64,000 nucleotides of DNA from Planctomycetota bacterium (GTDB lineage Bacteria > Planctomycetota > Planctomycetia > Gemmatales > HRBIN36), in assembly GCA_014584395.1 (NCBI GenBank), contig JACTMY010000006.1:59800-123799 (forward strand), written 5' to 3'. The notes below the pieces were generated by a model, which worked only from the letters and a program-made list of their open reading frames with translations, searched no databases and had not been told where the DNA came from. Positions 9,281 through 43,889 of the stretch are shown piece after piece (position 1 is the stretch's first letter; each line of letters begins with the position of its first letter). Position numbers and translations under genes: made by a program.

Positions 9281-9664
9281 TCAGCGCGCTTGCTCATCGG
9301 GCTGAAAGATACCGAAGGTGTTGCCCGCGGGGTCAATGAAGTAGCCCTGCCAGCAGCGTCCGGGAACAGCAAACTTCGGCATGGCTTCGCGACCGCCTCC
9401 GCGGATAATTGACTCAGCGGTGGAGTCGAAGTCGTTGACTTGGATGGAACACACGAAGGCGTTCGTCCCACAGCCATCAGGCGGTGTTGAGGCGGGACGT
9501 TTCAGCAGGCCCCCGGCGATTCCCGTGGTCTCGATGCGCCAATACTCGACCGGCAAGCCATCCTGCCTGAGGAACCGCCAGCCGAACAGAGTGCCGTAGA
9601 ACGTGGCCAACGCCTGCGGATCAGCGGCTTGAATCTCGAAGTAGCTGATATTGTTCATACTCAT
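9281..9664 (-). CDS. VOC family (glyoxalase/bleomycin-resistance fold) protein
   Basis: 127 aa with ISYFEIQAADPQALATFYGTLFGW...GYFIDPAGNTFGIF, typical of VOC proteins. Confidence 0.75.
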   Translation of the reverse strand: MSMNNISYFEIQAADPQALATFYGTLFGWRFLRQDGLPVEYWRIETTGIAGGLLKRPASTPPDGCGTNAFVCSIQVNDFDSTAESIIRGGGREAMPKFAVPGRCWQGYFIDPAGNTFGIFQPDEQAR

Positions 9665-15522: not shown

Positions 15523-16685
15523 CAAGCCGCTTGCTTGCGACGCGCCACTTCCGCGAATAATTCGAGCAAGGCTTGATAATGATCCTCAAACGTCCAGGCC
15601 ATGGCCGCCTGCCGGGCCGATCGGGCCAATCCCTGGCGATAAGCGTCGTCGCAAAATTGTTGTATGTGCCAGGCCAGGTGATCGGCATCATGCGGATCGG
15701 AAATCACGTGGGATTGCATGGCGGGAGGGAGCAATTCCGCGGCCCCATTGTGCACCGTGGTGATCACAGGCAATCCACAGGCAAGGGCTTCCAGAGTGAC
15801 CAGCGCGCAAGGATCATAGAAGGTTGGATGGACCAGGAAATCCGCGGCAAAATAGGGCTGCCTCACTTCCTCGACGAAGCCCAGAAAATGAACCTGATCG
15901 GCCACGCCCAAATCGCGGACCAGGCGTTCATAGGGTTTGACGTTTTGCCCGCCGCAGACGATCAATTGAGCAGACCCCTTAAGCCTGGCCCAAGCCCGCA
16001 GCAAAGGCCCGAGTCCCTTCAGCCGATAGTTATGGCCGCAGAACAACCCCACCACTTCTTCTGGATGTATCCCGAGCCGATCGCGCAATTCCGCGCGCAG
16101 CATGGGGCGGTCATAGGCTGTCATGCGGTCGGCATCGATGGCATTGGGAATGACGCGGACGCGGCTCGGATCGACGGAATACGACTGTTGCAAATGTCCC
16201 AGCACCATGCGACTCGGCACCACCACCCAGAGCGGTCGGTCCGCACGATATTGTTTTTGCTCCAGCCAGCGAAACGACCAATAACTCAAGCTGCAGCGCT
16301 GGACGCACCAGGCCAAGGAACGCATCCCAAAGGAAGCATGTTTGCGCAGGTTCTCCCGAGCGGAAACAACATGCACCCCCCCTTGGGGAATGAGCACGTC
16401 CTGGTGCCAGGTTTTGATCAGACCGACCACGACGTCATGCCGATGCAAGGGAATCGCTTGCTCGCAAGCCCTAGCGAAGTGCCATGGCCTAAGAAAACGA
16501 GGAGCTCGTCTGGGGGGAAGCGGATGATGTATCAATTCTTGAGGAAGCGACGCGGCGTCGTAGTCCACGGCGTAGAGATGCACTTCATGGCGATCGCGCA
16601 CCAGGCGGTGCAGCAGATCAGCCAGGTAGGTCTCCGCTCCACCCCGCTGGGGAAACACCGCTTCATAGGCAAAGGCAAGATTCAT
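15522..16685 (-). CDS. Glycosyltransferase family 4 (GT-B, RfaG/WaaG-like LPS core glycosyltransferase)
   Basis: 387 aa with N-terminal FPQRGGAETYLADLLHRLVRDRHEVHLY and a C-terminal GT1/GT4 motif (PTFYDPCALVTLEALACGLPVITT). It sits in the LPS gene cluster. Confidence 0.75.
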   Translation of the reverse strand: MNLAFAYEAVFPQRGGAETYLADLLHRLVRDRHEVHLYAVDYDAASLPQELIHHPLPPRRAPRFLRPWHFARACEQAIPLHRHDVVVGLIKTWHQDVLIPQGGVHVVSARENLRKHASFGMRSLAWCVQRCSLSYWSFRWLEQKQYRADRPLWVVVPSRMVLGHLQQSYSVDPSRVRVIPNAIDADRMTAYDRPMLRAELRDRLGIHPEEVVGLFCGHNYRLKGLGPLLRAWARLKGSAQLIVCGGQNVKPYERLVRDLGVADQVHFLGFVEEVRQPYFAADFLVHPTFYDPCALVTLEALACGLPVITTVHNGAAELLPPAMQSHVISDPHDADHLAWHIQQFCDDAYRQGLARSARQAAMAWTFEDHYQALLELFAEVARRKQAA

Positions 16686-16700
16686 GTGTTCATCGTCGAG

Positions 16701-17630
16701 TTAAGCAGCCGGCTTGGACACGCGCTGATGCGCCCCATCATGCTTTTGGACCATCGGCAAGGCTGGCTCCGAGGTTTTCGCTAGATTATGGTTCAGGTAA
16801 CGCTTGGCCTTAAGGGCCACCCATCGAGCGAGCCGTCGATCCGCGTTTGAAAACTTGCGGACGTTCAAATAAGCACGGAAAAAAGCCCATCGATCCCGGT
16901 CGGTAATCTCTGGAAGAAACGACGAATAGAGCAGTTGCGCCAGGTCTTTGATCCGCCAATAAAAACCCGTGATCGGATGATGGCCGAGCCGATGAAAATC
17001 GATCATGCTGATCTGACCAGGTTGGATGCGGGGGGGGTCGTCCCGAGTCGGCAGCGGCGCGTAAAAATGGCACAGATACAGGTCCTGATGGTAATGATGC
17101 GCATCATGCATGATGCGGACCAGGCGAGCCAGTTCGCGGATGAGGGAACGCCACCATTGCGGCGCCTCGGAGCGAGGCCGGATCGCCACGGCATGAGGAA
17201 GCCACTCGTTGAGGCTAAGCTGACCGGTCAATTCACGCAGCGCCAGATAACTCTGGCATCGTCCGCGCGGCCCTCGCCATTGGCCGACGGCCAAAGCATC
17301 CGGTACCGGAATCCCATGCTCCCTGGCCCACTGTAAATGTTTCCATTCCAACCAGGCGGGGGACCAGGCGCTTTGCGGGGCGATCCAGGCTTGCAACCGT
17401 TCCAGCCATGTGAAATGAAAATGACGTTTCAGATAAACCACCAAAGTGCGGCCATCGCGGTGAAACACCAACCTCCCCGTGGATCGTCCTTGCTTGGCAT
17501 GATACCGATCCGTGACCGGCATATTCATGAGGGCGGCCGCCTCGACGTGGCCGAGGAAGTCGTGCCATTCCGGATGCGTCAGGAAGCGCCCCTGCCCCGT
17601 GCGGCCGCGGGTCCAAAGTTTCAGGAACAT
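16701..17630 (-). CDS. Lipopolysaccharide kinase (Kdo/WaaP/InaA) family protein
   Basis: 309 aa with a kinase-like core, including HDAHHYHQDLYLCHFY (catalytic-loop-like) and IDFHRL. It lies next to a paralog and to the heptosyltransferase. Confidence 0.65.
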   Translation of the reverse strand: MFLKLWTRGRTGQGRFLTHPEWHDFLGHVEAAALMNMPVTDRYHAKQGRSTGRLVFHRDGRTLVVYLKRHFHFTWLERLQAWIAPQSAWSPAWLEWKHLQWAREHGIPVPDALAVGQWRGPRGRCQSYLALRELTGQLSLNEWLPHAVAIRPRSEAPQWWRSLIRELARLVRIMHDAHHYHQDLYLCHFYAPLPTRDDPPRIQPGQISMIDFHRLGHHPITGFYWRIKDLAQLLYSSFLPEITDRDRWAFFRAYLNVRKFSNADRRLARWVALKAKRYLNHNLAKTSEPALPMVQKHDGAHQRVSKPAA

Positions 17631-18538
17631 GGACCCTCTCCCGACGACTCATGGGGCTGAACCACCCGCAGTGAAGGCAGCCATGCCGTGGCATCCACGC
17701 TCACTCGCCAATAGGAGACGGCAGGCATGGCGTCGCCCTCCAGGGCCGGCGGGATCGTGGCCTGCCGCATCTTGCGGATTTTGTTGCGCTTCAATAATTG
17801 GGCTTCGCGTTGGCGAATGGCCCGCAGCGCGGCCCATTGTTCTTGTCGTTGGCGGCGGACCGCGGTGCTCCGCCAATAACGGGCATAAAAGGCCATCCGC
17901 TCCCTCGGTGTCACGGCGGCTTCGTGAAGGGATGCGGACAGGCTGGCCAAATCCCGCATGCGCTCGGCGAGCCGGGTGCCGCGCGGCGAATAGCGGGAGC
18001 GCTGAAAATCCACGAAGGCGACGTCGCTGGACTGCGTGCCGATGAAGACGTGCTTGGCGTAAAGGTCCGCATGCAGGAAGCCCGCATTGTGAAAGCGCGC
18101 CAGGGTATCGGCCAACTGCTCCAGCACTTTCCGCCGGGCCAAGCCGGGAGTCGCCGCGGCCAGGAAACGCGGCAAATCCACCGCCATGGGCAAGGCGCGC
18201 AGCATCAGGAACGCCTGCCCCTTGCGTTCCCCCATGGCCATCGGTTCGGGAGCAAAAAAGCCCAATTCACGCAAGCGAATCAATAACTGCCACTCGCGGC
18301 GCGCCTTGCTCACCCAACCAAAACCCGACCACCAATTGGTTAGCGCATCCTTCCAGGGCGACACGTACTCTTTCTTCAGGAAGACCTGGAGCTGATCCAA
18401 CGTCAATTGCCTGACGTCCCGTTGCCGGTGCCCCCCCACGAGGATGCCGTCCTCGATGCCCATGAAATCATGGAACGATCGGAGCCCCCATTTCCACAGG
18501 AAGAGGGCATAGCGCGGATTGATCAACAGGGCCGCCAT
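17621..18538 (-). CDS. Lipopolysaccharide kinase (Kdo/WaaP/InaA) family protein, second paralog
   Basis: 305 aa with FHNAGFLHADLYAKHVFI and VDFQRS motifs. It overlaps the downstream paralog by 10 nt. Confidence 0.65.
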   Translation of the reverse strand: MAALLINPRYALFLWKWGLRSFHDFMGIEDGILVGGHRQRDVRQLTLDQLQVFLKKEYVSPWKDALTNWWSGFGWVSKARREWQLLIRLRELGFFAPEPMAMGERKGQAFLMLRALPMAVDLPRFLAAATPGLARRKVLEQLADTLARFHNAGFLHADLYAKHVFIGTQSSDVAFVDFQRSRYSPRGTRLAERMRDLASLSASLHEAAVTPRERMAFYARYWRSTAVRRQRQEQWAALRAIRQREAQLLKRNKIRKMRQATIPPALEGDAMPAVSYWRVSVDATAWLPSLRVVQPHESSGEGPCS

Positions 18539-18539
18539 G

Positions 18540-19607
18540 TCACGCTCGCTTTCGTTGATCCTGTTGTGGCAAGGGCCAAGTCCATCGCGTCATCAGTTGG
18601 CGAACGGCATCGTAAACTTCCTCCGGCCCCAACTCAGTCATGCAGCGATGATCGAGCGGGCAGGTGCGCAGTTGGCACGGGCCACATGAAACCGGTTTTT
18701 GCAGGTGAATCGCCAAGGGGTGATACGTTTCCGTCCAGGCAATATGGGTCGGTCCAAACAACGTGACGACGGGTTTGTTGAACGCCGCCGCGAAGTGGCG
18801 CGGGCCGCTGTCGGTCGTGACGAGCAGGTCGCCGCGCCGCACACAGGCCTTGAGCAGGCCAATGGACAGCGTTTCCTCGGCCAGGCTGTGCACTGTGCGC
18901 CGTTGGGCCTGGTCGACAATCGACCGGGCCAGGGAGCGCTCCGAGGGGCCGCATAAAACCAAGACGTGAGCCTGGTCCTGATCCGCCAACCGTTGTGCCA
19001 GCCTGGCAAAGTGTTCGCTCGGCCAAAGCTTGGCTGAACCATAAGCCGCCCCCGGATTGAGCAGGACGACCTTGGCCGCTGCCTGCAAGCCAAACTTCGT
19101 CCAGACCTTGTCCGTCTGCTCTTCGTCTTGAGGCGACGTGAAGAGATGCATTTGATGGCCTGGCCACGGCGTTCCCAGGATCATCGCGATATGGTTATAT
19201 GCATCCAAGACGGGACTGGGAACATACCGGCCGCGTTCGTTGACCAAGGGCGGCAAGCGATCCGTCAGCATCCAGGAACGGCGGTCGCGGGCATAGCCCA
19301 CGATTCGGCGGCATCCCCCCAAATATGCGGTGAAGGCCGAACGAAAGGAATTGGGGAACAGGATGGCCACGTCGGCTTTCATTTTGCGCAAGTGGTATGC
19401 CGTGGAAGCGACGCTCTCCGCCCAGCCTTTCCCTTGGGTGCCCAGCCATTCATCGAACCACGGGCTGCCGGCGATGACGCCGTGAACGTATTTGCGCCCC
19501 ACGGCCACGAGTCGAGCCTGGCGGAAATGGCTGCGCAGGGCCGCGATCGCGGGAGTCGCCATGACCACGTCGCCAATCCAATTGGGCAGAAAGACGGCCA
19601 GGTTCAT
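18540..19607 (-). CDS. Glycosyltransferase family 9 (ADP-heptose:LPS heptosyltransferase)
   Basis: It has the N-terminal MNLAVFLPNWIGDVVMATPAIAALR signature of GT9 and the C-terminal TTDSGPRHFAAAF..P.V.LFGPT motif. Confidence 0.8.
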   Translation of the reverse strand: MNLAVFLPNWIGDVVMATPAIAALRSHFRQARLVAVGRKYVHGVIAGSPWFDEWLGTQGKGWAESVASTAYHLRKMKADVAILFPNSFRSAFTAYLGGCRRIVGYARDRRSWMLTDRLPPLVNERGRYVPSPVLDAYNHIAMILGTPWPGHQMHLFTSPQDEEQTDKVWTKFGLQAAAKVVLLNPGAAYGSAKLWPSEHFARLAQRLADQDQAHVLVLCGPSERSLARSIVDQAQRRTVHSLAEETLSIGLLKACVRRGDLLVTTDSGPRHFAAAFNKPVVTLFGPTHIAWTETYHPLAIHLQKPVSCGPCQLRTCPLDHRCMTELGPEEVYDAVRQLMTRWTWPLPQQDQRKRA

Positions 19608-19610
19608 GTT

Positions 19611-21146
19611 TCAAGCCACCTTGAGTGCGTTGCTGGGAGGCTCGCCTTGATCGCGAAGCTTGACCACCGCTGAAGTCGTGCTCAAGCCCGGCTTCATCGC
19701 CGCCAGATGAACCCGACCGCCGCGCGCTTCGACCCACTCCGCGCCGACGACTTGCTCCTTGCTGTAATCAGCACCTTTCACCAGCACGTCGGGGCTGATG
19801 CGTTCGATCAACGACAAGGGCGTGGGATCATCGAACAGCACGACGTAATCCACCGCCGCCAGCCCCGCCAAAACCTCCGCCCGATCCGCTTCATGATGAA
19901 TGGGCCTTTGCGGACCTTTCAGGCCGCGCACGCTGTGATCGCTGTTGAGGCCGACGATCAACACGTCGCCCTGGGCCTTGGCTTCGTTCAGATACTGCAC
20001 GTGGCCGGCGTGGAGCAGGTCGAAGCAACCGTTGGTGAAGACGATTTTACGATTTCGCGCGCGTTCGTATCTGAGCTGCATGTCCAGCACATCCAGACTG
20101 ACCTGCTTGTGCACAGACCCTGCCGCACCGCCGTGGCTGGCTTGCAAATCCGCGATCATCTCCTCGCGTGAAACCGGAGCGATCCCGACTTTTTCGACTT
20201 CCAGCCCCCCCGCGACGTTGGCCAAAGGAATGGCCGTTTCATAACCACTGCCCCCCGCCAAGGCCAGGCCGAGCACGCTCAATACCATGTCCCCCGCGCC
20301 GGTGATGTCGTAAACCTGCCGGGGCCGCGTGGGGAAATGTTGGCGGCGGCCATCCCGATGAACCATGGCCATGCCGTCCTTGTCGAGCGTGATAATCGAC
20401 GCTTCCATGGCGAGCATGTGCAAGAGCGTTTCCCCCGCCTTCCACGCTTGATCGAGCGTGTCGATCGGGAGACCAGTCGCCAGGCTGGCCTCGAGCCGAT
20501 TGGGGGTCATCGCATGACAACCCTTGTATTTCATGTAGGGGTGATTGCCATCGTTACTGCCGCAGCGAATGGGGTCCACTAAAATGCGCTTGCCCCCATG
20601 CAGGGCTTGGCGGATCACAGCCTGGGTCAATGTGGAAGTGCAAACGCCCTTGTCGTAATCGCTGATGAGAACGATATCGGCCAGGGCGATTTGGCGCGTG
20701 AGTATCGCGAGCAGCCGCTGCTCCAACGGCGCATCGATGGCCTGGCGGGTTTCATAATCTACGCGCAGGATTTGCTGCGGATGTTTCTGTTGGGCGCGGC
20801 CGACGTACCGTTCCTTCACCGTGGTCGGCCGCGACTCATCCGTCAACACCGCGTCGTGGTTGACCTGAAGCTGGTTCAAGAGATGGCGGAGGCGTTCCGC
20901 ATCGGCGTCCGCCCCTACAACTCCCGCCAAGGCGACACGGGCTTTCAAGGCTCGGAGCATCGTGGCGACGCTACTGGCCCCGCCCAGCCGCTCTTCCCGG
21001 CGATCCGCGCGCAGCAGGATCACCGGTGCTTCCTGGCTGATCCGTTCCGCGTCTCCCCAGACGTAACGGTCCAGCATCAGGTCGCCAAGAACCAAGACTT
21101 GGGGCTCGCCCCAATGCTCAATCTGTTGGATGAGATCCGTGGACAT
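19611..21146 (-). CDS. hldE: Bifunctional D-beta-D-heptose 7-phosphate kinase / D-beta-D-heptose 1-phosphate adenylyltransferase
   Basis: 511 aa. The N-terminal part is a ribokinase-like domain (VLVLGDLMLDRYVWG...DITGAGD). The C-terminal part is a cytidylyltransferase domain (FTNGCFDLLHAGHVQYL). Confidence 0.9.
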   Translation of the reverse strand: MSTDLIQQIEHWGEPQVLVLGDLMLDRYVWGDAERISQEAPVILLRADRREERLGGASSVATMLRALKARVALAGVVGADADAERLRHLLNQLQVNHDAVLTDESRPTTVKERYVGRAQQKHPQQILRVDYETRQAIDAPLEQRLLAILTRQIALADIVLISDYDKGVCTSTLTQAVIRQALHGGKRILVDPIRCGSNDGNHPYMKYKGCHAMTPNRLEASLATGLPIDTLDQAWKAGETLLHMLAMEASIITLDKDGMAMVHRDGRRQHFPTRPRQVYDITGAGDMVLSVLGLALAGGSGYETAIPLANVAGGLEVEKVGIAPVSREEMIADLQASHGGAAGSVHKQVSLDVLDMQLRYERARNRKIVFTNGCFDLLHAGHVQYLNEAKAQGDVLIVGLNSDHSVRGLKGPQRPIHHEADRAEVLAGLAAVDYVVLFDDPTPLSLIERISPDVLVKGADYSKEQVVGAEWVEARGGRVHLAAMKPGLSTTSAVVKLRDQGEPPSNALKVA

Positions 21147-21204
21147 CCCTGTCCCTCGATTCGTCCATGAACAAAGTCACTCACCGGTTCGCCTTTAACC
21201 CAAC

Positions 21205-22188
21205 TCAAGCGGCCTGGGACTGAGGCTCCGGAATCGACCGCTGTTGGTACAGTTTGGCGGCCACCGCGGCGTGGACCAGCGGAATCATGATTTCATGATG
21301 GCCGATCAGTTCGATCCCTTGATGCACGGGCCGCTCGACCACGTTGACGCGGCTGCGGTAGTTGGCATTTTTGTCCAGATTGACCGCGATCAGCTTGTCG
21401 AGGGCATAACCAAAATTGCGGACCACGCTCACGGCCTTGAGGAAGACCTCGGGCATGATCACCGCGCTGCCGAGATTCATCCAAATCCCCTCGGCCATCG
21501 TCGCCACCACGGAGCAAAGAAGGCGAAAATCCACCAGGCTGGCTTCGCCCATGGCCGCCCCGCTCACGTGCGGGTGCATGTGCACGATGTCCGTTCCCAG
21601 AGCGACGTGCACCGTGCAGGGGATGCCCGCTCGATGGGCCGCCAACAATAAACTCGCCTCGGGGTAAGCACAGTTTTGATCGGCCAGGTAGCGACCCAAG
21701 GCCGCCCCCAAACCGACGTGTTCCTGCGCCCCGATGCGCGCCGCCACGGCAAAGCCGTCCGCCGTCTCCTGGGCCATGCCGAATTTGCCGCTGGGCAATT
21801 GTCCGGCGACGTCCTCGCTGGTCTTGCCCACCAGGGCTAGTTCCAGGTCGTGAATGGCCGCGGAGCCGTTCATGGCCACGGCCGTGAGATAGCCGCGTTC
21901 GATCCAATCAATCAAGTAGGGAGCACAACCCGTCTTGATGACGTGCCCGCCCAGCGCCGCGACCACGGGACGCCCCTGCTCGAAGGCCGCACTCAAGTGA
22001 TCGCGCAAGGCCCGGACGCCATTGGCCGCCAATTGTCGGGGGAGTTGGTCCATCCATGCTTCGAGGGTAATCGGCCCCTCCGCCGGTCGTCCCAACTCAT
22101 CATGAAACACCTTGCTCGGGCGTTCTTTCAGTGGATACGTCTGCAATCCGTGCAGATTAAAGGGAGCAAATTTGCCTTGGGCTTCCAT
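21205..22188 (-). CDS. Deoxyhypusine-synthase-like (DHS-like NAD-binding fold) family protein
   Basis: 327 aa. The architecture parallels archaeal DHS: LGGHVIKTGCAPYLIDWIERGYLTAVAMNGSAAIHDLE vs FLGYTSN.ISSG.RE.I..L......D.IVTT.G...ED. IPCTVHVALGTDIVH is also present. The family call is from memory at low-identity level. Confidence 0.5.
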   Translation of the reverse strand: MEAQGKFAPFNLHGLQTYPLKERPSKVFHDELGRPAEGPITLEAWMDQLPRQLAANGVRALRDHLSAAFEQGRPVVAALGGHVIKTGCAPYLIDWIERGYLTAVAMNGSAAIHDLELALVGKTSEDVAGQLPSGKFGMAQETADGFAVAARIGAQEHVGLGAALGRYLADQNCAYPEASLLLAAHRAGIPCTVHVALGTDIVHMHPHVSGAAMGEASLVDFRLLCSVVATMAEGIWMNLGSAVIMPEVFLKAVSVVRNFGYALDKLIAVNLDKNANYRSRVNVVERPVHQGIELIGHHEIMIPLVHAAVAAKLYQQRSIPEPQSQAA

Positions 22189-22197
22189 GCCTTTCCC

Positions 22198-23253
22198 CTA
22201 TAAATGGAACACTCGATCCAACAACGAATGAAATGAATCCAAGCTCTCACGCAACCGAATCGCGATCTTGACTGCCAGCAAGCGGTGGCGGCCCAATGTT
22301 GGCACGCGCAGTTTGACTAAGTCTTTTTGGGTGGTGACGACCCAACCGTCTGGAGGCAGCTCTTCCGCCCAGCGTTCGAGAGCTTGCACGTCTGCTCGCG
22401 AATAGGGGTGATGATCCGCAAAGGTGCGTTGGAGCCGCACGTCCGCCCCCAGCCCTCGAAGCATGCGGAAGAACGCTTCGGGATTGCCGATGCCGCAAAA
22501 CGCCGCGACGGTCTTGCCCGCCAGGGCTGCCGTCGGCTCTGTCTGCTGCTGGGCATCCATCAGGACCTCGGGAACATGTTCCGACAAGAAGACCGGCCGC
22601 GATCCCATGCGCCGTTGGGCTTCCGCCCGCAAATGGCCCATGGCCTCAGGATCGACCTGATCGCAGCGCGTTAACACAACGGCATCCGCCCGGGCCAGTC
22701 CGTGAATCGATTCACGCAGCAATCCGCGAGGCAACTGCCAGCCATGACCCCATGGCTGCGTGGCATCGATCAGGACCAAGTCTAGATCGCGGGCCAGGCG
22801 GCGATATTGAAATCCATCATCCAGCACGATGACTTCGCTCTCCAACTCTTCCGGGGCCATCCGAGCCAAGGCGACGCGGTCGATTCCCTGCAAATGCGGC
22901 ACGTCGGGCAAATTGTCTTCCAACACCATCGCTTCGTCATTGCGGCCATGCGTCGCGCCATAACCGCGGCTGAGGATCACAACGCGGCGCTCCTGTTGTC
23001 TGAAATGACGGGCGACGTATTCGACCATCGGCGTTTTACCCGTCCCGCCCACCGTCAGATTGCCGATCGAGATTACCGGGCAAGCCGCGCGATGGACGGT
23101 TTTCCATCCCAAGTCAAAGAGCCAATTGCGCGTCGACGTGACCGTGCCATAAGCCATGGTCCCCAAACTCAAACCGCCGCGCAGCAGACTCGGCCACATC
23201 CCTCGCGAGTCGCCGCTGATTAATTGACGATGACATTCGCCCCAATCACTCAC
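22198..23253 (-). CDS. lpxK: Tetraacyldisaccharide 4'-kinase
   Basis: It has the P-loop ISIGNLTVGGTGKTPMVEYV followed by VVILSRGYG, which is diagnostic of LpxK. Confidence 0.85.
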   Translation of the reverse strand: MSDWGECHRQLISGDSRGMWPSLLRGGLSLGTMAYGTVTSTRNWLFDLGWKTVHRAACPVISIGNLTVGGTGKTPMVEYVARHFRQQERRVVILSRGYGATHGRNDEAMVLEDNLPDVPHLQGIDRVALARMAPEELESEVIVLDDGFQYRRLARDLDLVLIDATQPWGHGWQLPRGLLRESIHGLARADAVVLTRCDQVDPEAMGHLRAEAQRRMGSRPVFLSEHVPEVLMDAQQQTEPTAALAGKTVAAFCGIGNPEAFFRMLRGLGADVRLQRTFADHHPYSRADVQALERWAEELPPDGWVVTTQKDLVKLRVPTLGRHRLLAVKIAIRLRESLDSFHSLLDRVFHL

Positions 23254-29795: not shown

Positions 29796-30218
29796 ATGCT
29801 CCTACGGAAAACCATTCAAGAGTTGCAGGACCTGCTCGCCTGCTTGTCGCCCAGCACCGCCGGGGAGACGCTTTCTCGAGAGCGCCTGAGCGAGCCTCGG
29901 GCTGGTCGTCGCAAAAAAGAGGGCGATAACAACGAAGATGACATCGAAGACGAGGATGAGGACGACGACGAAGAGGATGAGGATGATGATTTAGAGGAAG
30001 ATGAAGAGTTCGAAGACGATCTCGAGGATGATGACCTCGATGATTTAGATGATGATGATTTCGACGACGATGACTTCGACGACTTGGACGATGACGACCT
30101 CGATGAGGACCTCGAAGACGATTTTGAAGATGAATTCGAGGACGACGATGATTTAGAGGATGACGAAGAGGAAGAAGAAGAGGAAGAGGAAGAGGAGAAT
30201 TTTGACGACGAAGAATAA
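29796..30218 (+). CDS. Poly-acidic (Asp/Glu-rich) low-complexity protein, 140 aa
   Basis: ATG with AAGGAA upstream. The first 45 aa or so are ordinary sequence. From there to the C-terminus almost every residue is D or E, with only L/F/I/N spacers (e.g. DDLDDLDDDDFDDDDFDDLDDDDLDEDLEDDFEDEFEDDDD, and a run of 14 E). A strong intrinsic terminator follows. Confidence 0.65.
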   Translation: MLLRKTIQELQDLLACLSPSTAGETLSRERLSEPRAGRRKKEGDNNEDDIEDEDEDDDEEDEDDDLEEDEEFEDDLEDDDLDDLDDDDFDDDDFDDLDDDDLDEDLEDDFEDEFEDDDDLEDDEEEEEEEEEEENFDDEE

Positions 30219-32818: not shown

Positions 32819-33370
32819 TCACAGCCGTTCGAACTTGGCGGCGAATTCCCGGAAGATGTCCTCGGGATGGAAGTTAAAAATCGTCTTCTCCGAGGGATGC
32901 CACTGGCCTCCCTCGAAGGTGAACAGCACCGTGGCATTCTTGGCCAAATCCACGGCGGGCAGACCCTCCATGTCGCTGTCAGGGATGACATCGAATTGGA
33001 TGTCGCAGCCCATCAGCATGACGTACTGCCCCGAACGCCGCTCGCGCCCCAAGTGGGCCTCGGTTTGCCAATCGATCTGCTGCCAGCGCAGGCCGCGCGG
33101 CTTGCCCGATGCTGCCGCTTGCGCTTGAAAGCGCTGCTGCAGGGCTGGTTGCTGTTCGGCAAAGAGCGCATGGAGCTTTTCCTTGCGCCACCGGGCCAGG
33201 GGTAAGCGCAACATTCCCCCCAGGATGGCCAGGCCCATCAGCAGCAGGATGATCCAAACCCAAACAGTCCAGGATGGCCAGGCCCAAGGCATCATGTCAT
33301 TGATTGACCTTCGTGACACAAACACAAATGGATGGTCTTGCGGCTTTCTCGTCGCTTCCCTTTTCGCCAA
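32819..33370 (-). CDS. Hypothetical single-pass membrane protein
   Basis: 183-aa ORF with one Trp-rich TM segment (WAWPSWTVWVWIILLLMGLAILGG). I recognised no family. Confidence 0.45.
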   Translation of the reverse strand: MAKREATRKPQDHPFVFVSRRSINDMMPWAWPSWTVWVWIILLLMGLAILGGMLRLPLARWRKEKLHALFAEQQPALQQRFQAQAAASGKPRGLRWQQIDWQTEAHLGRERRSGQYVMLMGCDIQFDVIPDSDMEGLPAVDLAKNATVLFTFEGGQWHPSEKTIFNFHPEDIFREFAAKFERL

Positions 33371-33436
33371 GGATTATATTAGGAACGAATACAGCCAATT
33401 TTGGCAAGAAATGTCATCGCTCGAGGGTTGCCTTTC

Positions 33437-34108
33437 ATGATGAACGATCCCGTCCCTGCCGATCGTTTCCCCACGCTCGATGAAGCCGTGGCGACGCTGA
33501 TCGACTGGGGTCGGCTCTTTTACGATCGGAGGTGGTGCGAAGCGGGCAGCGGCAGCTTCAGCATGGTCTTGGGTAGAGACCCCTTGCGGATGGTGATGAC
33601 GGCGCCCCAAAGCGACAAGCGCCGCCTGACCGAACGGGATTTGATCGTCATCGATGCACAGGGGCAGATCGAGGGCTCGCCGCCGGCGCCGCCGAGCGGG
33701 GAAGCGCCGCTGCACGGCGTCATCGCGGAGTTTCTGCCCGCCGTTCGCGTGATTGTGCACACGCAATCCCAAGCCGCGACCTTGATCTCAGAACCCAACT
33801 ATCCACAGAACAACCTGGTGCTCGAAGGCTACGAAATGCTCAAGGGGTTGAGCGGCGTGACGAATCCGACGACCAAGGTTTATCTCAAGATTTACGACAA
33901 CACCCAGCAGATCGGCGAGCTGACCCGCCGGCTTCGGCTCGTCTTTCCTGAAGCCACTCCCGCCATGAAATATGGCTTCCTGCTCAAGCGGCACGGTCTG
34001 TTTACCTGGGGCAAGGATGGCGAGGAAGCACGCCGGCACCTGGAGACGCTGGAATATCTCTTCGAATTGATGCTTCGGCGATCGCTGATCTTTCCCGACC
34101 GTTTGTAG
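33437..34108 (+). CDS. Methylthioribulose-1-phosphate dehydratase-like class II aldolase/adducin family protein (diverged metal site)
   Basis: It is collinear with MtnB: GSGSFS (vs GTSGN.S), PSGEAPLH, VIVHTQSQAATLIS (vs AVLHTHS..AT), LVLEGYEMLKGLSGV, IYDNTQ and LLKRHGLFTWG. ATG at 33437 was chosen; the track starts at TTG 33401. Confidence 0.65.
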   Translation: MMNDPVPADRFPTLDEAVATLIDWGRLFYDRRWCEAGSGSFSMVLGRDPLRMVMTAPQSDKRRLTERDLIVIDAQGQIEGSPPAPPSGEAPLHGVIAEFLPAVRVIVHTQSQAATLISEPNYPQNNLVLEGYEMLKGLSGVTNPTTKVYLKIYDNTQQIGELTRRLRLVFPEATPAMKYGFLLKRHGLFTWGKDGEEARRHLETLEYLFELMLRRSLIFPDRL

Positions 34109-34245
34109 ACGGCATCCCCTTGATCGTCTGGTTCCGAGCTCCAACAGGATCGCTGCTGCGGGATGCAAGACGTGAACCATGCTTGAACGTTTTCCCTTTC
34201 CCGCATAAACTCCCATCTACCCATGGAGCCGTGGTTCGACGTCTG

Positions 34246-34986
34246 ATGAAAAGTGACAGCCTCATGCAAACGTCCGACGCTTATTTGCTTCTCAAGCTCT
34301 CCGGCACCCTGCTGCGTCCGGATTACATCGAAAGCGTGCTTTATCCCCATGCGCGCTTGCAAATGTACATGTTCTTGCGGCGGGCGTGGTGCCATCCCCA
34401 GGTCCAAGAAGCGCGTGAACGCTTCGCCAAAAGCGAAGGTGCCGACAGTTTCGCGGAGTGGCTGGGAGGGCCAGGCTTGCCGCCGGAGTATGCTTATGAG
34501 CGGTTCCGCGAAGTCATCACTCGCATGTTGGTGCAAAAGGTGCACACCGAGCCGCTGGCCATCTTGTTGCAGCTTCTCTGGGAAGAACAACTGCGCGCCA
34601 ATGCCATTGAAGGGGTGGTGCTCCCCAATGCGGTTCGAGCGCTGCAACAGTGGAACGAAAAACACAAACGCTTCGCTTTTTATTCACCCGAGAACGCCGT
34701 CCTGGAAAAGTTGATCGTTCAATTCAACGAGATGGAAAACATCGGCCAGCTTGCCAGCCACCACTTTGGCTCGGAACTCGGCTCCGCCTGTGACGCCGCC
34801 ACGTACCGCCGCATGGCGGAACATTTGAAGATCCCCCCTGGCCAGTTGCTTTACGTGGCCACCGATGCAGATTGCCTGTTCCATGCCAAGGAAGCGGGAT
34901 GCAAGACGGTTTGTCTCGCCGCCAAGGACGCTCCTCCTGGCCAGAACGGCCTGGCTACCATCCATGATCTCATGGACATCGCCTAG
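34246..34986 (+). CDS. Enolase-phosphatase E1 (MtnC)-like HAD-fold protein lacking the HAD nucleophile motif
   Basis: It aligns end to end with E1/ENOPH1: LLLKLSGTLLRPDYIESVLYPHA vs ILLDIEGTTTPI.FV.D.LFPY, FYSPEN vs IYSSGS and YVATD vs FLTD. The DxE nucleophile motif and the motif III Lys are replaced. Confidence 0.55.
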   Translation: MKSDSLMQTSDAYLLLKLSGTLLRPDYIESVLYPHARLQMYMFLRRAWCHPQVQEARERFAKSEGADSFAEWLGGPGLPPEYAYERFREVITRMLVQKVHTEPLAILLQLLWEEQLRANAIEGVVLPNAVRALQQWNEKHKRFAFYSPENAVLEKLIVQFNEMENIGQLASHHFGSELGSACDAATYRRMAEHLKIPPGQLLYVATDADCLFHAKEAGCKTVCLAAKDAPPGQNGLATIHDLMDIA

Positions 34987-40666: not shown

Positions 40667-42016
40667 TCAGGCCAGATCGGGCTGGAGAAAGCGGACGCGC
40701 ATCCCCTCGGATTGCATAATGGCTTCGGCGGCCAGGTAGCCGCTGCGAACGGCCCCTTCCATGGTGGCGGGCCAGCCGGTCGCCGTCCAATCTCCCGCCA
40801 AATACAGCCCCGCGATGGGCGACCGCTGGTCCGGCCGCCAGCGATCCACCCCCGGTTCGACGCTGAACGTCGCGTGCGGCTCGGTGATGACCCGCGATCG
40901 CAACAGCTTCGCCTCGGCCGGAATGGGCAGCCTCGCTTGCAATCCTTCCAGGACCGCCGCCAAAATGCGCTCGCCGCCCCATCCTCGCAAGTCGCGCGCC
41001 GCGCTGATGACGACTTGATAGTAGTGCTCCCCGGCCACACCCGAGGGGCGATGGAAGAGCCATTGCGAAATGCCTTCCAGCAACACCAAGTGCGGATAGG
41101 TCGTGATGGGACGATCAAACCACATGTGCACGCTGGTGATGGGAGAGGTTTTGAGCAGTTGCATTCTCGTGAACACCGGGTATTGCTGCACGACCTCGGA
41201 AGGCAGCAGGTCAAGCAAGCGGTAAAAGGGAACGGCGGCCAGATAGAGGTCCGCTTCAAGCGTCTCGCCGCCGCGCAGTTGAACGCCGTGAATGACCGCA
41301 TTCTCGATTAGCAATTGCCGAGCAGGGCAATCGAGCCGAAGGTCGATGTGATGGTCCTTGAGCCAAGCCTGCATTTCCTTGCCGTACAATTCGCTTAAGG
41401 GCACCTTCGGCAGATAGACCACGCCCCCTTCACGGTGCTTCATCAAACCCTCGACGAAAACCTTGCGCGCATATTTGAGGCCGATCTGTTCAATGCCTTC
41501 GTTCAATGCGCTAACGAGAATGACGTTCCAAAAACAGTTGATGGACGTGCGTTGTTGCCCCTGCTCCTCGAGCCACTCCATGAAGGGGGGATCGGATTGA
41601 GGCGAAAAGCGCTCCAGGGCCGCCAAGGCCCAGCCAATGCTGAGCTTGTCCGAACGGGAAAGAAAATGGGCGCGGAGAAACGAGCGGATCAAATGCCAGG
41701 GCGCCGGCAAGCCATCGGCCCGCCATTGGGAGACGCGGCCATCCGCCGTCATGAAGTAAAGCGTTGTGACGCGTTCCAGCAGGTGAGCGATGCCGACCTG
41801 TTCGCAGAAGTGGGTAAAATTGGTGCAGCAGCCCATGCTGACGTGCTGACAGAGGTCGACGGCTTGCCCCGAGTTGGGGTCCGTGAAGGAACTGGCCCGG
41901 CCTCCTAATTGACTGCGTGCTTCCACCAGGGTAATGCGCCATCCGCGAGGAGCGAGGGCCGTCGCCGCGGCCAGCCCCGCGAGTCCGCCGCCAATGATCA
42001 GGAGTCGTCCGGACAT
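40667..42016 (-). CDS. hpnE: Hydroxysqualene dehydroxylase HpnE (FAD-dependent amine-oxidase/phytoene-desaturase fold)
   Basis: ATG at 42016 gives MSGRLLIIGGGLAGLAAA (Rossmann GxGxxG). It lies immediately downstream of the tandem squalene-synthase-like gene. Confidence 0.75.
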   Translation of the reverse strand: MSGRLLIIGGGLAGLAAATALAPRGWRITLVEARSQLGGRASSFTDPNSGQAVDLCQHVSMGCCTNFTHFCEQVGIAHLLERVTTLYFMTADGRVSQWRADGLPAPWHLIRSFLRAHFLSRSDKLSIGWALAALERFSPQSDPPFMEWLEEQGQQRTSINCFWNVILVSALNEGIEQIGLKYARKVFVEGLMKHREGGVVYLPKVPLSELYGKEMQAWLKDHHIDLRLDCPARQLLIENAVIHGVQLRGGETLEADLYLAAVPFYRLLDLLPSEVVQQYPVFTRMQLLKTSPITSVHMWFDRPITTYPHLVLLEGISQWLFHRPSGVAGEHYYQVVISAARDLRGWGGERILAAVLEGLQARLPIPAEAKLLRSRVITEPHATFSVEPGVDRWRPDQRSPIAGLYLAGDWTATGWPATMEGAVRSGYLAAEAIMQSEGMRVRFLQPDLA

Positions 42017-42044
42017 CGTGCCGATCTCCACATGCCTGGGGCGG

Positions 42045-43889
42045 TCATGAGCCAGCCGCCCAACGCTGAGGGATCGTCTTTAGGAACAACTGCAGCTTGC
42101 GCCAGCGCGGCAACCGAAAACGTTTTCCCTTCCATTGAAATTGCGAGTTTTCCAACCGGTCCAAAATTTCCGCATAAGTTTGCGACATCAACCGCCATAC
42201 GGCCCGCCCATCATGGGGGAGAAAATCCGCCACGGCCGCGGCATCCTTATAATGACCTCGGGCGATCCGGGCCATGTCGCGCAACAGGGCCAAAGCGTCC
42301 GCGGGAGGCGGTTCTTGGACGATTTCTTCCTCCCGCACTTGATGCTGATTCATAAGGTCCAAGGGCACATAGCACCGATTGTCGCGCGCATCGAGCCGAA
42401 CATCACGCAAAATATTAGTAATTTGCAACGCCCGACCAGCGGACAGGGCGTGGGGCAGCACCTTGGGATCATGGCAACCCCACACCGCCAGGCAGCATAA
42501 GCCGACATACCCGGCTACCTGGTCGCAATAACGCTCCAATTCCGCCAGGGTTTGAAAGCGTCGGCAAGCCAGGTCGCTCTCCACGCCATCGATCACCACG
42601 TGAAACCACGCAGGGTCGATGCGAAAACGCTGCACGGCCCGGATCAAAGCAGGGTGAAGGCGATGAGAAAATTGGCCCCGCAAGGCCCGATCCAAATCGT
42701 CGCGCCACCGTTTGAGAGCGGCTGTCTTCCAGGCCGCGGGAGCAGGGTCATCGGCCAGGTCGTCCGTGATGCGCATGAAGGCATAGAGGGCGCACATGCC
42801 CATGCGTTGTTCGGGAGGCAACATCCAAAAGGAGTAGTAGAAATTGCCTGCGCGCTGCCGAGCCAAATATTCGCAATAACGCTCGGATTGCGCGAGGGAG
42901 ATGCGCTCCCTCCAACCGCGGCGGTGCGGCGATGCACTTCGATCGGTTGGACATGGGGAACAGCGATCGGGAGCCAATTGCTGCCACCGGCATTGCAGCC
43001 AGTGCTGAATGAGCATGGCGGCCTGCCGCGTCTTGCTCACCGTGGGCCGTCGAGACCAGACGTCGAACTGCTGTCTTTCAATCGCTTCAAGGATCGCCAT
43101 GCCGCCGGAGATGATGAGGTCCACCTCGCCGGACACCTCGCTCGGCAGCTTTTGCACCAAGGCCCGGCCGGCTTGTAACAGATGTCGCGCGCGGTTGACC
43201 TCAAACGACATCAAGGCTTGAAAGGCCGGCGTGCAGCGGCGCTGGGCGAGATCTTCGTCGGCATAGCCAAACCGCTCCCGATCTTCGCGCGGGAGATAGC
43301 AGCGCCCCTTGCCATGATCCACGGCGACGTCTTGCCAAAAGTTGGCCAATTGCAGTCCCGTGCATATCTGATCGGACCGTTCAAGCGATTCCGCATCGAC
43401 GGCGCGAAACAGATGCAGCAAAATGCGGCCAACGGGATTGGCGGAGGAGCGGCAATAGGCAAGCAGTTGTTCGAAGGCGGCATATTCCTTGACGGTCTGG
43501 TCCTGCTCGAAGGCGGCCAGCAGATCGAGAAAAAGCTCAGGCGGAATGGCAAAGGCCCGAATCGTCTCCCGCAAAGCGATCATGACGGGGTGCCGGCTCG
43601 ATCCTTGCAACATGGCCTGAAACTCTTGCCGCCACCATTGGAGCAAGGCCAAGGCCTGCTGCCCTTCGGGCGTCTCGTCGGCCAAATCGTCCGCCCATCG
43701 GCAATAGGCGTAAATGGCATGAAAATGTTGCTGCAGGGAACGCGGTAAAAGAAGGGAGCCAACCGCGAAGTTCTCATAGTGTCTTTGGGCCAAACGCCGG
43801 CAATAACGCCGGGCAGCCGCGAGGGTGGGCCGTCGGCAACGGGCTTGCGGGCCGAATTGTTGCAAGTCCAAAGCGAACGAATCGTGCAT
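42045..43889 (-). CDS. Fused HpnC-like / HpnD-like protein (two tandem squalene/phytoene synthase domains)
   Basis: 614 aa. Domain 1 has HYENFAVGSLLLPRSLQQHFHAIYAYCRWADDLADE (HpnC-like). Domain 2 has AGNFYYSFWMLPPEQRMGMCALYAFMRITDDLADD (HpnD-like). Each domain has its own second Asp-rich region. Confidence 0.75.
   Translation of the reverse strand: MHDSFALDLQQFGPQARCRRPTLAAARRYCRRLAQRHYENFAVGSLLLPRSLQQHFHAIYAYCRWADDLADETPEGQQALALLQWWRQEFQAMLQGSSRHPVMIALRETIRAFAIPPELFLDLLAAFEQDQTVKEYAAFEQLLAYCRSSANPVGRILLHLFRAVDAESLERSDQICTGLQLANFWQDVAVDHGKGRCYLPREDRERFGYADEDLAQRRCTPAFQALMSFEVNRARHLLQAGRALVQKLPSEVSGEVDLIISGGMAILEAIERQQFDVWSRRPTVSKTRQAAMLIQHWLQCRWQQLAPDRCSPCPTDRSASPHRRGWRERISLAQSERYCEYLARQRAGNFYYSFWMLPPEQRMGMCALYAFMRITDDLADDPAPAAWKTAALKRWRDDLDRALRGQFSHRLHPALIRAVQRFRIDPAWFHVVIDGVESDLACRRFQTLAELERYCDQVAGYVGLCCLAVWGCHDPKVLPHALSAGRALQITNILRDVRLDARDNRCYVPLDLMNQHQVREEEIVQEPPPADALALLRDMARIARGHYKDAAAVADFLPHDGRAVWRLMSQTYAEILDRLENSQFQWKGKRFRLPRWRKLQLFLKTIPQRWAAGS

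What the first reader, a model, noticed from the sequence alone, without database searches (positions are those of the whole stretch)
33437..34986. Adjacent MtnB-like and MtnC-like genes that have both lost canonical catalytic residues
The pair looks like methionine-salvage mtnB (class II aldolase-fold dehydratase) and mtnC (enolase-phosphatase E1). Both align collinearly with those families.

In the E1-like protein:
- HAD motif I, D-I-E-G-T, reads K-L-S-G-T, so there is no Asp nucleophile.
- The motif III Lys region reads GSACDAATY.
- SSGS reads SPEN.
- Only the motif IV Asp (VATD) is kept.

In the MtnB-like protein the zinc-binding HTH(S) motif reads HTQS.

No other mtn genes (mtnA, mtnD, mtnK/mtnP) are in the window. 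The pair may be a co-evolved pseudoenzyme/enzyme couple or may catalyse different chemistry.
Basis: partly seen in the sequence, partly recalled or inferred. Interest (0 to 1): 0.55.

Follow-up and report, generated by a model that had tools for sequence, protein, structure and literature searches.

The report
Repurposed relic of methionine-salvage operon
Two neighbouring genes in a planctomycete descend from the methionine-recycling enzymes MtnB and MtnC, have lost residues those enzymes need, yet are still kept intact by selection, so they probably do a different, unknown job.

Summary
Window 33437-34108 (+) encodes a 223-aa MtnB-family protein. One of its three zinc histidines is Gln (VHTQS), and three of five phosphate-pocket positions are replaced. 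Window 34246-34986 (+) encodes a 246-aa enolase-phosphatase E1 (MtnC) homologue with no Asp nucleophile (KLSGT), no motif III Lys and no SGS loop.

Both are predicted to fold well (pLDDT 93). The E1-like model superposes on human E1 (TM 0.84). The same substitutions, with synonymous codon differences, occur in the only other lineage found, a Gemmatales MAG (71% and 57% identity, synonymous sites saturated). They are therefore neither sequencing errors nor drifting pseudogenes.

Synteny shows the pair sits at the ancestral mtn locus. A related planctomycete has a canonical mtnB-mtnD-mtnC operon there, and other relatives show intermediate or MtnB-less degenerate states.

Best reading: this is a methionine-salvage operon relic that cannot run the canonical chemistry. 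The E1-like protein is a pseudo-phosphatase. The MtnB-like protein probably keeps an altered metal site and binds a differently anchored ligand. The actual function is unknown, and a genome-wide mtn inventory could not be made. Interest is moderate: a new variant of known kinds.

The parts
33437..34108 (+). MtnB-like gene (MtnB*), 223 aa, class II aldolase fold. It keeps E89, H108, E133 and H186. H110 is replaced by Gln (codon 33764-33766). The phosphate-pocket equivalents of FucA T26, N29, T43 and G44 are replaced by G37, S40, P57 and Q58.
34246..34986 (+). Enolase-phosphatase E1 (MtnC)-like gene (E1*), 246 aa, HAD fold. The substitutions are K17 (codon 34294-34296) for the Asp nucleophile, S19 for Glu, P148-E149-N150 for S-G-S, G175 for Asp, A181 for the motif III Lys, T206-D207 at motif IV, and A226 for a family-invariant Arg. 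An alternative start is the ATG at 34264.
34109..34245 (+). The 137-bp spacer between the two genes. The block CCGCATAAACTCCCATCTACC (34201-34221) is conserved with the orthologous locus, while the rest has diverged. There is no remnant of mtnD.
33372..33384 (+). TATA-type box GATTATATTAGGA, 53 nt upstream of the MtnB* start. Its TATA core and four flanking bases are invariant at five orthologous loci. It is inferred to be the -10 element of the ancestral mtn promoter.
32819..33295 (-). Divergently transcribed small protein with an N-terminal hydrophobic helix (about 158 aa from the MMPW start) and no known family. It is a conserved neighbour of the mtnB/E1-like locus in all related loci, including those that have lost MtnB. 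Whether it is functionally linked is unknown.

Best explanation
**What it is.** The pair is the vertical, positional descendant of a methionine-salvage operon mtnB-mtnD-mtnC in a Gemmatales-type planctomycete. In this lineage mtnD has been deleted and both remaining proteins have been rebuilt at their active sites.

**The E1/MtnC descendant.**
- It has lost the Asp nucleophile (now Lys), the Glu two residues later, the motif III Lys, the SGS loop, and 33 of 47 family-conserved positions.
- It therefore cannot be a HAD phosphatase. This step is inferred with high confidence from the established HAD mechanism.
- It is a pseudo-phosphatase whose cap/core cleft has been relined with new residues that are themselves conserved (KLSGTLLRPDY, LLWEEQL, GSELGSA).
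- I infer that it now serves as a ligand- or partner-binding module, or less likely as a catalyst of a different kind.

**The MtnB descendant.**
- It keeps the fold, the catalytic Glu loop (GYEMLKG), the Glu equivalent to FucA E73, and two of three metal histidines.
- The third histidine is Gln, and three of five phosphate-anchoring residues are replaced.
- I infer that it still binds a metal and a ketose-like ligand, but not methylthioribulose-1-phosphate in the canonical way.

**Consequence.** The canonical steps (dehydration, enolisation/dephosphorylation, dioxygenation) are not run by this locus.

**Shown versus inferred.**
- Shown: homology, loss of residues, conservation of the derived states, orthology of the locus, confident predicted folds, and maintenance under purifying selection.
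- Inferred: loss of canonical activity, a retained metal site in MtnB*, a binding role for E1*, and joint action of the two proteins.
For: **Orthologous locus.**
- The small protein (-)/MtnB/.../E1 arrangement recurs in relatives.
- L004/L005 carry canonical MtnB, MtnD (ARD) and MtnC (TIGR01691 239 bits). L007/L008 lack MtnD and are partly altered.
- The same divergent TATA box is present at all loci.

**Loss of catalytic residues.** PMC3698126 states that the three His coordinate an essential metal in MtnBs and that motifs I-III of MtnC are essential for dephosphorylation. An APIP triple His->Ala mutant is inactive (PMC3532061).

**Selection.**
- The orthologue in a Gemmatales MAG has intact ORFs of the same length.
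- Synonymous sites are saturated (dS 1.5 to above 2.8).
- dN is 0.23 for MtnB*, equal to FeoB. dN is 0.42 for E1*, close to the neighbouring small protein.
- The derived motifs are encoded by different synonymous codons.
- GC3 is typical of the window's genes.

**Pattern of constraint.**
- MtnB*: family-conserved columns are 86% identical between the two lineages versus 64% elsewhere (p = 8e-4). Of the 19 derived residues, 15 are shared.
- E1*: invariant runs of 12 and 18 residues cover motif I and the cap.

**Folds.** pLDDT is 93.4 and 93.3. TM is 0.84 to human E1 1ZS9 and 0.79 to Aquifex MtnB 2IRP.

**Accelerated change in E1*.** It is 32% identical to the canonical relative's MtnC, while MtnB* is 54% identical to that relative's MtnB. 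The two canonical-type loci differ by about 61% identity in both genes.
Against: - No biochemical evidence exists. A Gln can in principle ligate a metal, so MtnB* might retain some dehydratase activity.
- For E1*, the former active-site columns are not significantly more conserved than the rest (66% versus 54%, p = 0.14). That fits a purely structural role as well as a binding cleft.
- Only two lineages of this clade exist in the searched data, so selection estimates rest on one saturated comparison.
- Joint action is only suggested by adjacency. Degenerate E1-like genes persist without MtnB in related loci.
- The rest of the genome could not be inspected for canonical mtn genes.
Confidence: 0.6

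Rival explanations
1. The pair is a neofunctionalised enzyme couple and both proteins are catalysts. MtnB* uses a His2/Gln/Glu metal centre on a substrate that lacks the canonical phosphate anchor. E1* uses the new Lys17, with neighbouring conserved Arg24, Asp26, Glu113 and Glu114, for non-phosphoryl chemistry on MtnB*'s product, for example as a general base or Schiff base. Together they form a new short pathway derived from methionine salvage.
For: - The derived residues are fixed and conserved in both lineages (15/19 in MtnB*).
- Invariant runs include KLSGTLLRPDY, LLWEEQL and GSELGSA in E1*.
- The phosphate-handling residues changed in both proteins together.
- The class II aldolase fold already hosts enzymes of non-phosphorylated substrates, such as pyruvic oxime dioxygenase and a pyridine-dicarboxylate decarboxylase among the fold matches.
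Against: - E1* has replaced 33 of 47 family-conserved positions. Its old active-site columns evolve at the background rate.
- I know of no HAD-fold enzyme that works with Lys at the nucleophile position (own knowledge, not tested).
- Related lineages keep degenerate E1-like genes without MtnB. This argues against an obligatory two-step pathway.
Confidence: 0.22
2. The genes are decaying relics under relaxed selection, on their way to loss after the methionine salvage pathway was abandoned. They have no remaining function.
For: - mtnD is gone.
- Catalytic residues are lost in both genes.
- E1* evolves faster than its neighbours (dN 0.42).
- Its family HMM score falls in steps across relatives: 239, 216, 149, then 60 bits.
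- Relatives show MtnB already deleted.
Against: - Both ORFs are intact and of equal length in two lineages separated by saturated synonymous divergence.
- dN stays well below dS.
- The derived motifs are kept with synonymous codon changes.
- Predicted folds are very confident.
- MtnB* conserved columns are significantly more constrained than the rest.
Confidence: 0.1
3. The pair is still a working methionine-salvage MtnB/MtnC pair with unconventional residues. Gln would act as the third metal ligand, and another residue or a water/metal mechanism would replace the Asp nucleophile.
For: - MtnB* passes NCBI's mtnB equivalog cutoff.
- It keeps the catalytic Glu loop and two His.
- The genes stay adjacent and in the ancestral order.
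Against: - All HAD phosphotransfer motifs are missing in E1*, which scores far below the family cutoff.
- Three of five phosphate-pocket positions in MtnB* are replaced.
- mtnD is absent from the locus, and no mtnA/K/P/D is in the window.
Confidence: 0.05

Closest known systems
MtnB, methylthioribulose-1-phosphate dehydratase (TIGR03328; Aquifex aq_1979 PDB 2IRP; human APIP PDB 4M6R)
   Same: - Same fold: TM 0.79 to 2IRP.
- 35% identity to 2IRP.
- Passes the HMM cutoff.
- Keeps the GYEMLKG loop with its catalytic Glu, the HGL(F/Y)TWG motif with the third His, and the first His.
- Sits at the ancestral mtnB position in the operon.
   Different: - The second metal His is Gln.
- The positions equivalent to FucA T26, N29, T43 and G44 (phosphate anchoring) are G, S, P and Q.
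- No mtnD or canonical mtnC partner is present.
MtnC / enolase-phosphatase E1 (TIGR01691; human ENOPH1 PDB 1YNS/1ZS9; yeast Utr4 2G80)
   Same: - Same HAD core plus helical cap: TM 0.84.
- Collinear alignment.
- Keeps Gly-Thr of motif I, the motif II Ser, and the planctomycete-specific cap motif GGPGLPPE.
- Sits at the ancestral operon position.
   Different: - No Asp nucleophile (Lys instead).
- No Glu at +2, no motif III Lys, no SGS loop.
- The motif IV Asp is displaced by one residue.
- 33 of 47 family-conserved positions are replaced.
- The HMM score is 60 bits against a cutoff of 128.
Non-catalytic members of catalytic folds: HAD-fold Tim50 and the adducin head domain (class II aldolase fold). 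These are recalled from my own knowledge. Adducin also appears among the fold matches.
   Same: They keep the enzyme fold, have lost metal or nucleophile residues, and are retained under selection as binding modules.
   Different: - Those are eukaryotic and unrelated in sequence.
- Here, two consecutive enzymes of one bacterial operon are affected together.
- MtnB* keeps most of its catalytic apparatus.
Rewired methionine-salvage variants: Tetrahymena MtnBD fusion (PMC3698126, PMC2759508) and the Ald2 aldolase of the DHAP shunt, which is annotated as MtnB (PMC6302742)
   Same: They show that the MtnB scaffold changes function readily and that automatic 'MtnB' annotations can hide different chemistry.
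   Different: Those variants keep the three-His metal site and act on phosphorylated substrates. None involves an E1 homologue without a nucleophile.

Membership tests
MtnB (methylthioribulose-1-phosphate dehydratase) | Sequence matches the curated family model above its cutoff | tested here: met
   TIGR03328 scores 160.9 bits against a cutoff of 137.05. The best PDB hit is Aquifex MtnB 2IRP at E 2.7e-32.
MtnB (methylthioribulose-1-phosphate dehydratase) | Three histidines coordinate the essential divalent metal (H-x-H plus a distal H) | tested here: not met
   The sites read H108-T-Q110 plus H186. H-x-H is present in 101 of 104 homologues. The requirement is stated in PMC3698126 and PMC3532061.
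MtnB (methylthioribulose-1-phosphate dehydratase) | Phosphate-anchoring residues of the class II aldolase fold (equivalents of FucA N29, T43, G44, S71, S72) | tested here: not met
   N29->S40, T43->P57, G44->Q58; S71 is kept in the window (S87) but is Ile in the orthologue; S72->G88. This comes from adding the FucA 1FUA sequence to the family alignment. The role of these residues in FucA is from my own knowledge of the FucA-inhibitor structures.
MtnB (methylthioribulose-1-phosphate dehydratase) | Catalytic Glu loop (GYEMLKG) and the Glu equivalent to FucA E73 | tested here: met
   E133 and E89 are invariant in all 59 aligned sequences, including this one.
MtnB (methylthioribulose-1-phosphate dehydratase) | Dehydratase activity on methylthioribulose-1-phosphate, within a complete salvage pathway | not testable with these tools
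The window holds no mtnA/D/K/P. The rest of the genome is unavailable.
MtnC / enolase-phosphatase E1 (acireductone synthase) | Sequence matches the curated family model above its cutoff | tested here: not met
   TIGR01691 scores 59.8 bits against a cutoff of 128.1, and there is no Pfam hit. Relatives at the same locus score 239, 216 and 149 bits.
MtnC / enolase-phosphatase E1 (acireductone synthase) | HAD motif I with the Asp nucleophile (D-x-E/D-x-T) | tested here: not met
   The motif reads K17-L-S19-G-T. The family has Asp in 92% and Glu in 95% of sequences at these columns.
MtnC / enolase-phosphatase E1 (acireductone synthase) | Motif II Ser/Thr and the SGS loop | tested here: inconclusive
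   Ser147 is kept, but S-G-S is replaced by P-E-N (P-S-H in the orthologue).
MtnC / enolase-phosphatase E1 (acireductone synthase) | Motif III Lys | tested here: not met
   A181 in both lineages. The family has Lys in 92% of sequences.
MtnC / enolase-phosphatase E1 (acireductone synthase) | Motif IV Asp (metal ligand) | tested here: inconclusive
   The family Asp column holds T206 (Asn in the orthologue). A conserved Asp follows at 207. Coordinates of the model could not be inspected.
HAD superfamily (fold level, C1 cap) | Rossmannoid core with a helical cap, superposable on solved members | tested here: met
   The AlphaFold2 model has pLDDT 93.4. Foldseek gives TM 0.84, E 4e-15 to human E1 1ZS9.

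The most novel reading that the evidence does not exclude
The two proteins form a new two-step pathway derived from methionine salvage that works without a phosphate handle. MtnB* would use a His2-Gln-Glu metal centre on a non-phosphorylated ketose-like substrate. E1* would be the first HAD-fold catalyst in which a Lys at the nucleophile position replaces both the Asp and the Mg2+, by charge swap, to process the reactive diketone or enediol product.
Probability: 0.12. Interest if true: 0.7.

Novelty: new variant of a known kind. Interest (0 to 1): 0.4.

Why it matters
**Annotation.** Automatic pipelines would name the first gene 'methylthioribulose 1-phosphate dehydratase', because it passes NCBI's equivalog cutoff. 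A methionine-salvage step would then be inferred that this locus almost certainly cannot perform.

**Biology.**
- The set of orthologous loci runs from a canonical mtnB-mtnD-mtnC operon, through partly altered forms and MtnB-less forms, to this doubly altered pair.
- It is a natural series showing what happens to consecutive pathway enzymes after the pathway is abandoned.
- The E1-like gene is repeatedly kept as an intact, selected, catalytically disabled protein. This points to a second, non-phosphatase role of this fold in planctomycetes.
- Bacterial pseudoenzymes are little studied. Human MtnB (APIP) has reported roles in cell-death control and ERBB3 signalling beyond its salvage reaction (PMC6302742, PMC5008309). 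A bacterial counterpart could therefore be tested directly.

Tried and rejected
**Searches that found nothing more.**
- Two JGI metagenome scans, one with the E1* alignment and one with the MtnB* alignment, found no further clade members.
- The genome-collection scan found one member, a Gemmatales MAG.
- The exhaustive representative search found only one 50% cluster for E1*. The next hit is 33% identical.
- The third homologue search, with a 13-sequence profile, returned only three proteins because of the candidate cap.

**Regulation and expression.**
- No Rfam riboswitch, SAM or otherwise, is in the window; the only hit is a tRNA.
- The consensus promoter and terminator scans gave nothing above the shuffled expectation.

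**Close-strain comparison.** The close strain differs at only 3 of 4367 bases, and strain proteins differ by single residues. This gives no power for an unsaturated dN/dS estimate.

**Remnants and second copies.** tblastn found no mtnD remnant in the spacer and no second canonical copy in the window.

**The small neighbouring protein.** It has no Pfam, NCBIfam or PDB match.

**Literature.** Searches found no description of E1/MtnC homologues without a nucleophile, nor of methionine salvage in planctomycetes.

**Ideas rejected.**
- A link to the adjacent feoAB genes: they are convergent, and they are absent from the canonical and intermediate loci.
- A link to the CoA-transferase genes: they are separated by an opposite-strand gene and are absent from the canonical locus L004.

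**Not possible.** The model coordinates could not be inspected, so I could not see what fills the nucleophile pocket.
Full report
**1. What is at the coordinates.**

Two same-strand genes fill 33437-34986.
- The MtnB-like gene (MtnB*) runs 33437-34108 and encodes 223 aa.
- The E1/MtnC-like gene (E1*) runs 34246-34986 and encodes 246 aa.
- A 137-bp spacer separates them.
- The mechanical ORFs start further upstream at TTG codons. Those extensions are not conserved in the orthologue. Public assemblies call exactly these proteins.
- GC3 is 0.75 for the MtnB* ORF and 0.67 for the E1* ORF, typical of the window's genes.

**2.

MtnB*:
- It matches Pfam Aldolase_II and passes NCBI's mtnB equivalog, TIGR03328, at 160.9 bits against a cutoff of 137.05.
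- HMMER aligns its VHTQS with VHTHS of Aquifex MtnB (2IRP) and IHTHS of human APIP (4M6R).
- Among 104 homologues, only this protein, its orthologue and one unrelated sequence lack H-x-H.

E1*:
- It has no Pfam hit. It matches acireductone synthase TIGR01691 at only 59.8 bits against a cutoff of 128.1.
- Against human E1 (1YNS) the alignment gives D16->K17, E18->S19, S154-G155-S156->P-E-N, D181->G175 and K187->A181. D212 aligns to T206, with an Asp at 207.
- A 130-sequence alignment gives the same registers.
- Of 47 columns conserved in at least 80% of the family, E1* differs at 33, including an Arg that is invariant in the other 78 sequences (A226).
- The AlphaFold2 model puts K17 at the end of strand beta1 (residues 13-17), where HAD nucleophiles sit. 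No Asp is available there.

Other mtn genes in the window:
- Pfam scans of the 40 largest other ORFs found no mtnA, mtnD, mtnK or mtnP.
- tblastn with a relative's MtnB, MtnD, MtnC and PEP_hydrolase-like proteins found nothing beyond the pair itself.

**3.

I added the E. coli FucA sequence to the MtnB alignment. I had typed it from memory and verified it as identical to PDB 1FUA. This maps the phosphate-anchoring positions of the fold:

| FucA residue | Window MtnB* |
|---|---|
| T26 | G37 |
| N29 | S40 |
| T43 | P57 |
| G44 | Q58 |
| S71 | S87 (Ile in the orthologue) |
| S72 | G88 |

E73, H92 and the distal His are kept (E89, H108, H186). So is the GYEMLKG loop that carries the catalytic Glu. 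MtnB* has therefore lost one metal ligand and most of its phosphate pocket, but not its general acid/base machinery. The role of the FucA residues rests on my knowledge of the FucA-inhibitor structures.

**4. Not an error, not a drifting pseudogene.**

- The only other lineage found is a Gemmatales MAG (JBDHUG010000003; also an ENA contig). It has the same gene pair with the same substitutions. MtnB* is 71% identical and E1* 57% identical.
- KLSGT is encoded by AAG-CTC-TCC-GGC-ACC here and by AAA-CTC-TCG-GGC-ACA there.
- Synonymous sites between the two genomes are saturated (NG86 dS 1.5 to above 2.8).
- dN is 0.23 for MtnB*, equal to FeoB. It is 0.42 for E1*, close to the neighbouring small protein at 0.36.
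- Both ORFs are intact and of nearly equal length.
- Both proteins are predicted to fold with high confidence: pLDDT 93.4 and 93.3.
- The E1* model superposes on human E1 at TM 0.84. The MtnB* model superposes on Aquifex MtnB at TM 0.79.

**5. Where the pair comes from.**

Contigs carrying the closest homologues show the same locus in different states.

| Locus | MtnB | MtnD | E1/MtnC |
|---|---|---|---|
| L004/L005 | canonical (HIHS, TSSNYS) | present (ARD) | canonical (DVEGT, YSSGS, K, SD; 239 bits), then a PEP_hydrolase-like gene |
| L007/L008 | phosphate loop altered (GGGTCS), H-T-H kept | absent | keeps D, K, D; SSGS is SCES |
| L012/L013 | absent | absent | P0009: DLEGT kept, motif IV Asp lost; 149 bits |
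| L011 | absent | absent | P0005: DLEAT, Lys and Asp lost |
| Window and L003 | H-T-Q, phosphate pocket altered | absent | KLSGT etc.; 59.8 bits in the window (L003 not scored) |

- In every case a small protein with an N-terminal hydrophobic helix is encoded divergently just upstream. It is 41-57% identical among the better-conserved loci.
- A TATA-type box lies 50-65 nt upstream of the first gene. Its TATA core and four flanking bases are invariant across five loci.
- Coenzyme A transferase genes flank the locus in the window, L003 and L008.
- The window pair is thus the positional orthologue of a canonical mtnB-mtnD-mtnC operon, not a stray duplicate.
- Pairwise identities group the window with L003 and group L007 with L004. 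The loss of mtnD and the alterations therefore arose at least twice.
- E1* was specially accelerated. It is 32% identical to the L004 MtnC, while MtnB* is 54% identical to the L004 MtnB. L007 and L004 differ by about 61% identity in both genes.
- Other E1-like proteins without the nucleophile exist elsewhere, for example P0017 of another Gemmatales MAG and P0006, each standing alone.

**6. Pattern of constraint.**

MtnB*:
- The 70 family-conserved columns are 86% identical between the two lineages, against 64% for other columns (Fisher p = 8e-4).
- Of the 19 columns where the window departs from the family, 15 carry the same derived residue in the orthologue.
- This is the signature of a shifted but still constrained site.

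E1*:
- The 47 family-conserved columns are 66% identical against 54% elsewhere (p = 0.14).
- Only 18 of the 33 derived residues are shared.
- However, the longest identical runs lie on the former cleft: LKLSGTLLRPDY (motif I and flap), GGPGLPPEYAYERFREVI and LLWEEQL (cap), and GSELGSA (the motif III loop).
- A uniform model gives a mean longest run of 8.9 residues, a 95th percentile of 13 and a 99.9th percentile of 19.
- So the old catalytic residues are no longer specially protected, but parts of the cleft are.

**7. Most likely mechanism.**

- Established HAD chemistry requires the motif I Asp as nucleophile and metal ligand, the motif III Lys and the motif IV acidic residues. PMC3698126 lists these motifs for MtnC as essential for dephosphorylation and metal coordination.
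- E1* lacks them all, so it is not a phosphatase. Lys17 puts a positive charge where Asp plus Mg2+ used to be.
- I read E1* as a pseudo-phosphatase kept as a ligand- or partner-binding module.
- MtnB* keeps enough to remain a metal-dependent protein. It has a His2-Gln-Glu site and a pocket that no longer anchors a phosphate in the canonical way.
- With mtnD absent from the locus, the canonical route from methylthioribulose-1-phosphate to the methionine keto acid cannot be run by this locus.
- Whether the two proteins act together is inferred only from retained adjacency. The MtnB-less relatives show that E1-like proteins can persist alone.
- I give this reading 0.6. The rivals score as follows: a fully catalytic new couple 0.22, functionless decay 0.10, and still-canonical salvage 0.05.

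**8. Comparison with what is known.**

- By fold and descent these are MtnB and MtnC homologues.
- MtnB* passes the sequence model but fails two defining features: the three-His site and the phosphate pocket.
- E1* fails the sequence model and three of four HAD motifs.
- Precedents exist for non-catalytic descendants of both folds. Adducin is one for the class II aldolase fold and is seen among the fold matches. Tim50 is one for the HAD fold (my own knowledge).
- The MtnB scaffold is known to change function readily (Ald2, the MtnBD fusion; PMC6302742, PMC3698126).
- I found no paper describing E1 homologues without a nucleophile, or this pair.
- The finding is therefore a new variant of known kinds.

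**9. Limits.**

- Only two lineages of this clade are available, and their synonymous sites are saturated.
- The rest of the genome could not be inspected for other mtn genes.
- The model coordinates could not be examined.
- No experiment was possible.

**10. Verdict.**

The pair is best described as a repurposed relic of a methionine-salvage operon. Interest is moderate (0.4).

Noticed in passing
window 32819-33295 (-); L003 8569-9042; L004 6768-7244; L008 1053-1523; L012 5360-5830; L011 1064-1480: A small protein (about 156-158 aa) with an N-terminal hydrophobic helix and no Pfam, NCBIfam or PDB match. It is encoded divergently next to the mtnB/E1-like locus in every related locus. This includes loci that have lost MtnB and keep only a degenerate E1-like gene (51% identity to L012; E 9e-6 to L011).
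   Followed up: partly
window 33372-33384: A TATA-type box (GATTATATTAGGA) in the divergent intergenic region. Its TATA core and four flanking bases are invariant across five orthologous loci, while the surrounding DNA has diverged. It is probably the -10 element of the ancestral mtn promoter.
   Followed up: partly
window 34201-34221: A 21-nt block (CCGCATAAACTCCCATCTACC) in the MtnB*-E1* spacer. It matches the Gemmatales MAG at 19 of 21 positions, although the rest of the spacer has diverged. It is absent from the shorter spacer of L007.
   Followed up: partly
L009 8001-8786 (P0017); L011 1675-2493 (P0005); L012 6001-6738 (P0009); P0006, P0054, P0060, P0065, P0111: Several other E1-like proteins lack one or more HAD catalytic residues. 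At least the first four come from planctomycete-like contigs. Most stand alone without mtnB or mtnD. Degeneration of E1 therefore seems recurrent rather than unique to this window.
   Followed up: partly
P0226 (metagenomic protein, 1.5-kb contig): An unrelated MtnB-family protein in which the H-T-H metal motif reads Y-S-Q and GYEMLKG reads GFEALKG. This is a second, independent loss of the metal site.
   Followed up: no
L004 9404-10246; L007 1831-2670: A PEP_hydrolase-like TIM-barrel gene (PF09370) directly follows mtnC in the canonical and intermediate loci. It is absent from the window and from L003. Its link to methionine salvage is unknown.
   Followed up: no
window 29796-30218 (+): A 140-aa protein whose C-terminal two thirds are almost pure Asp/Glu. 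It is conserved in position and sequence (64% identity) in the Gemmatales MAG (L003 5580-5999).
   Followed up: no
window 40667-43889 (-): A 614-aa protein with two squalene/phytoene synthase domains, next to a flavin amine-oxidase-type gene. This looks like a squalene (HpnCDE-type) synthesis cluster.
   Followed up: no
window 15522-23253 (-): A run of lipopolysaccharide core genes: a GT4 glycosyltransferase, two Kdo/WaaP-family kinases, a heptosyltransferase, a PfkB-kinase/cytidylyltransferase fusion, and LpxK.
   Followed up: no
window 11535-12710 (+): A fusion protein with CopZ-type zinc-binding, MerT mercury-transport and heavy-metal-associated domains. It lies next to a TetR-family regulator (9661-10284).
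   Followed up: no
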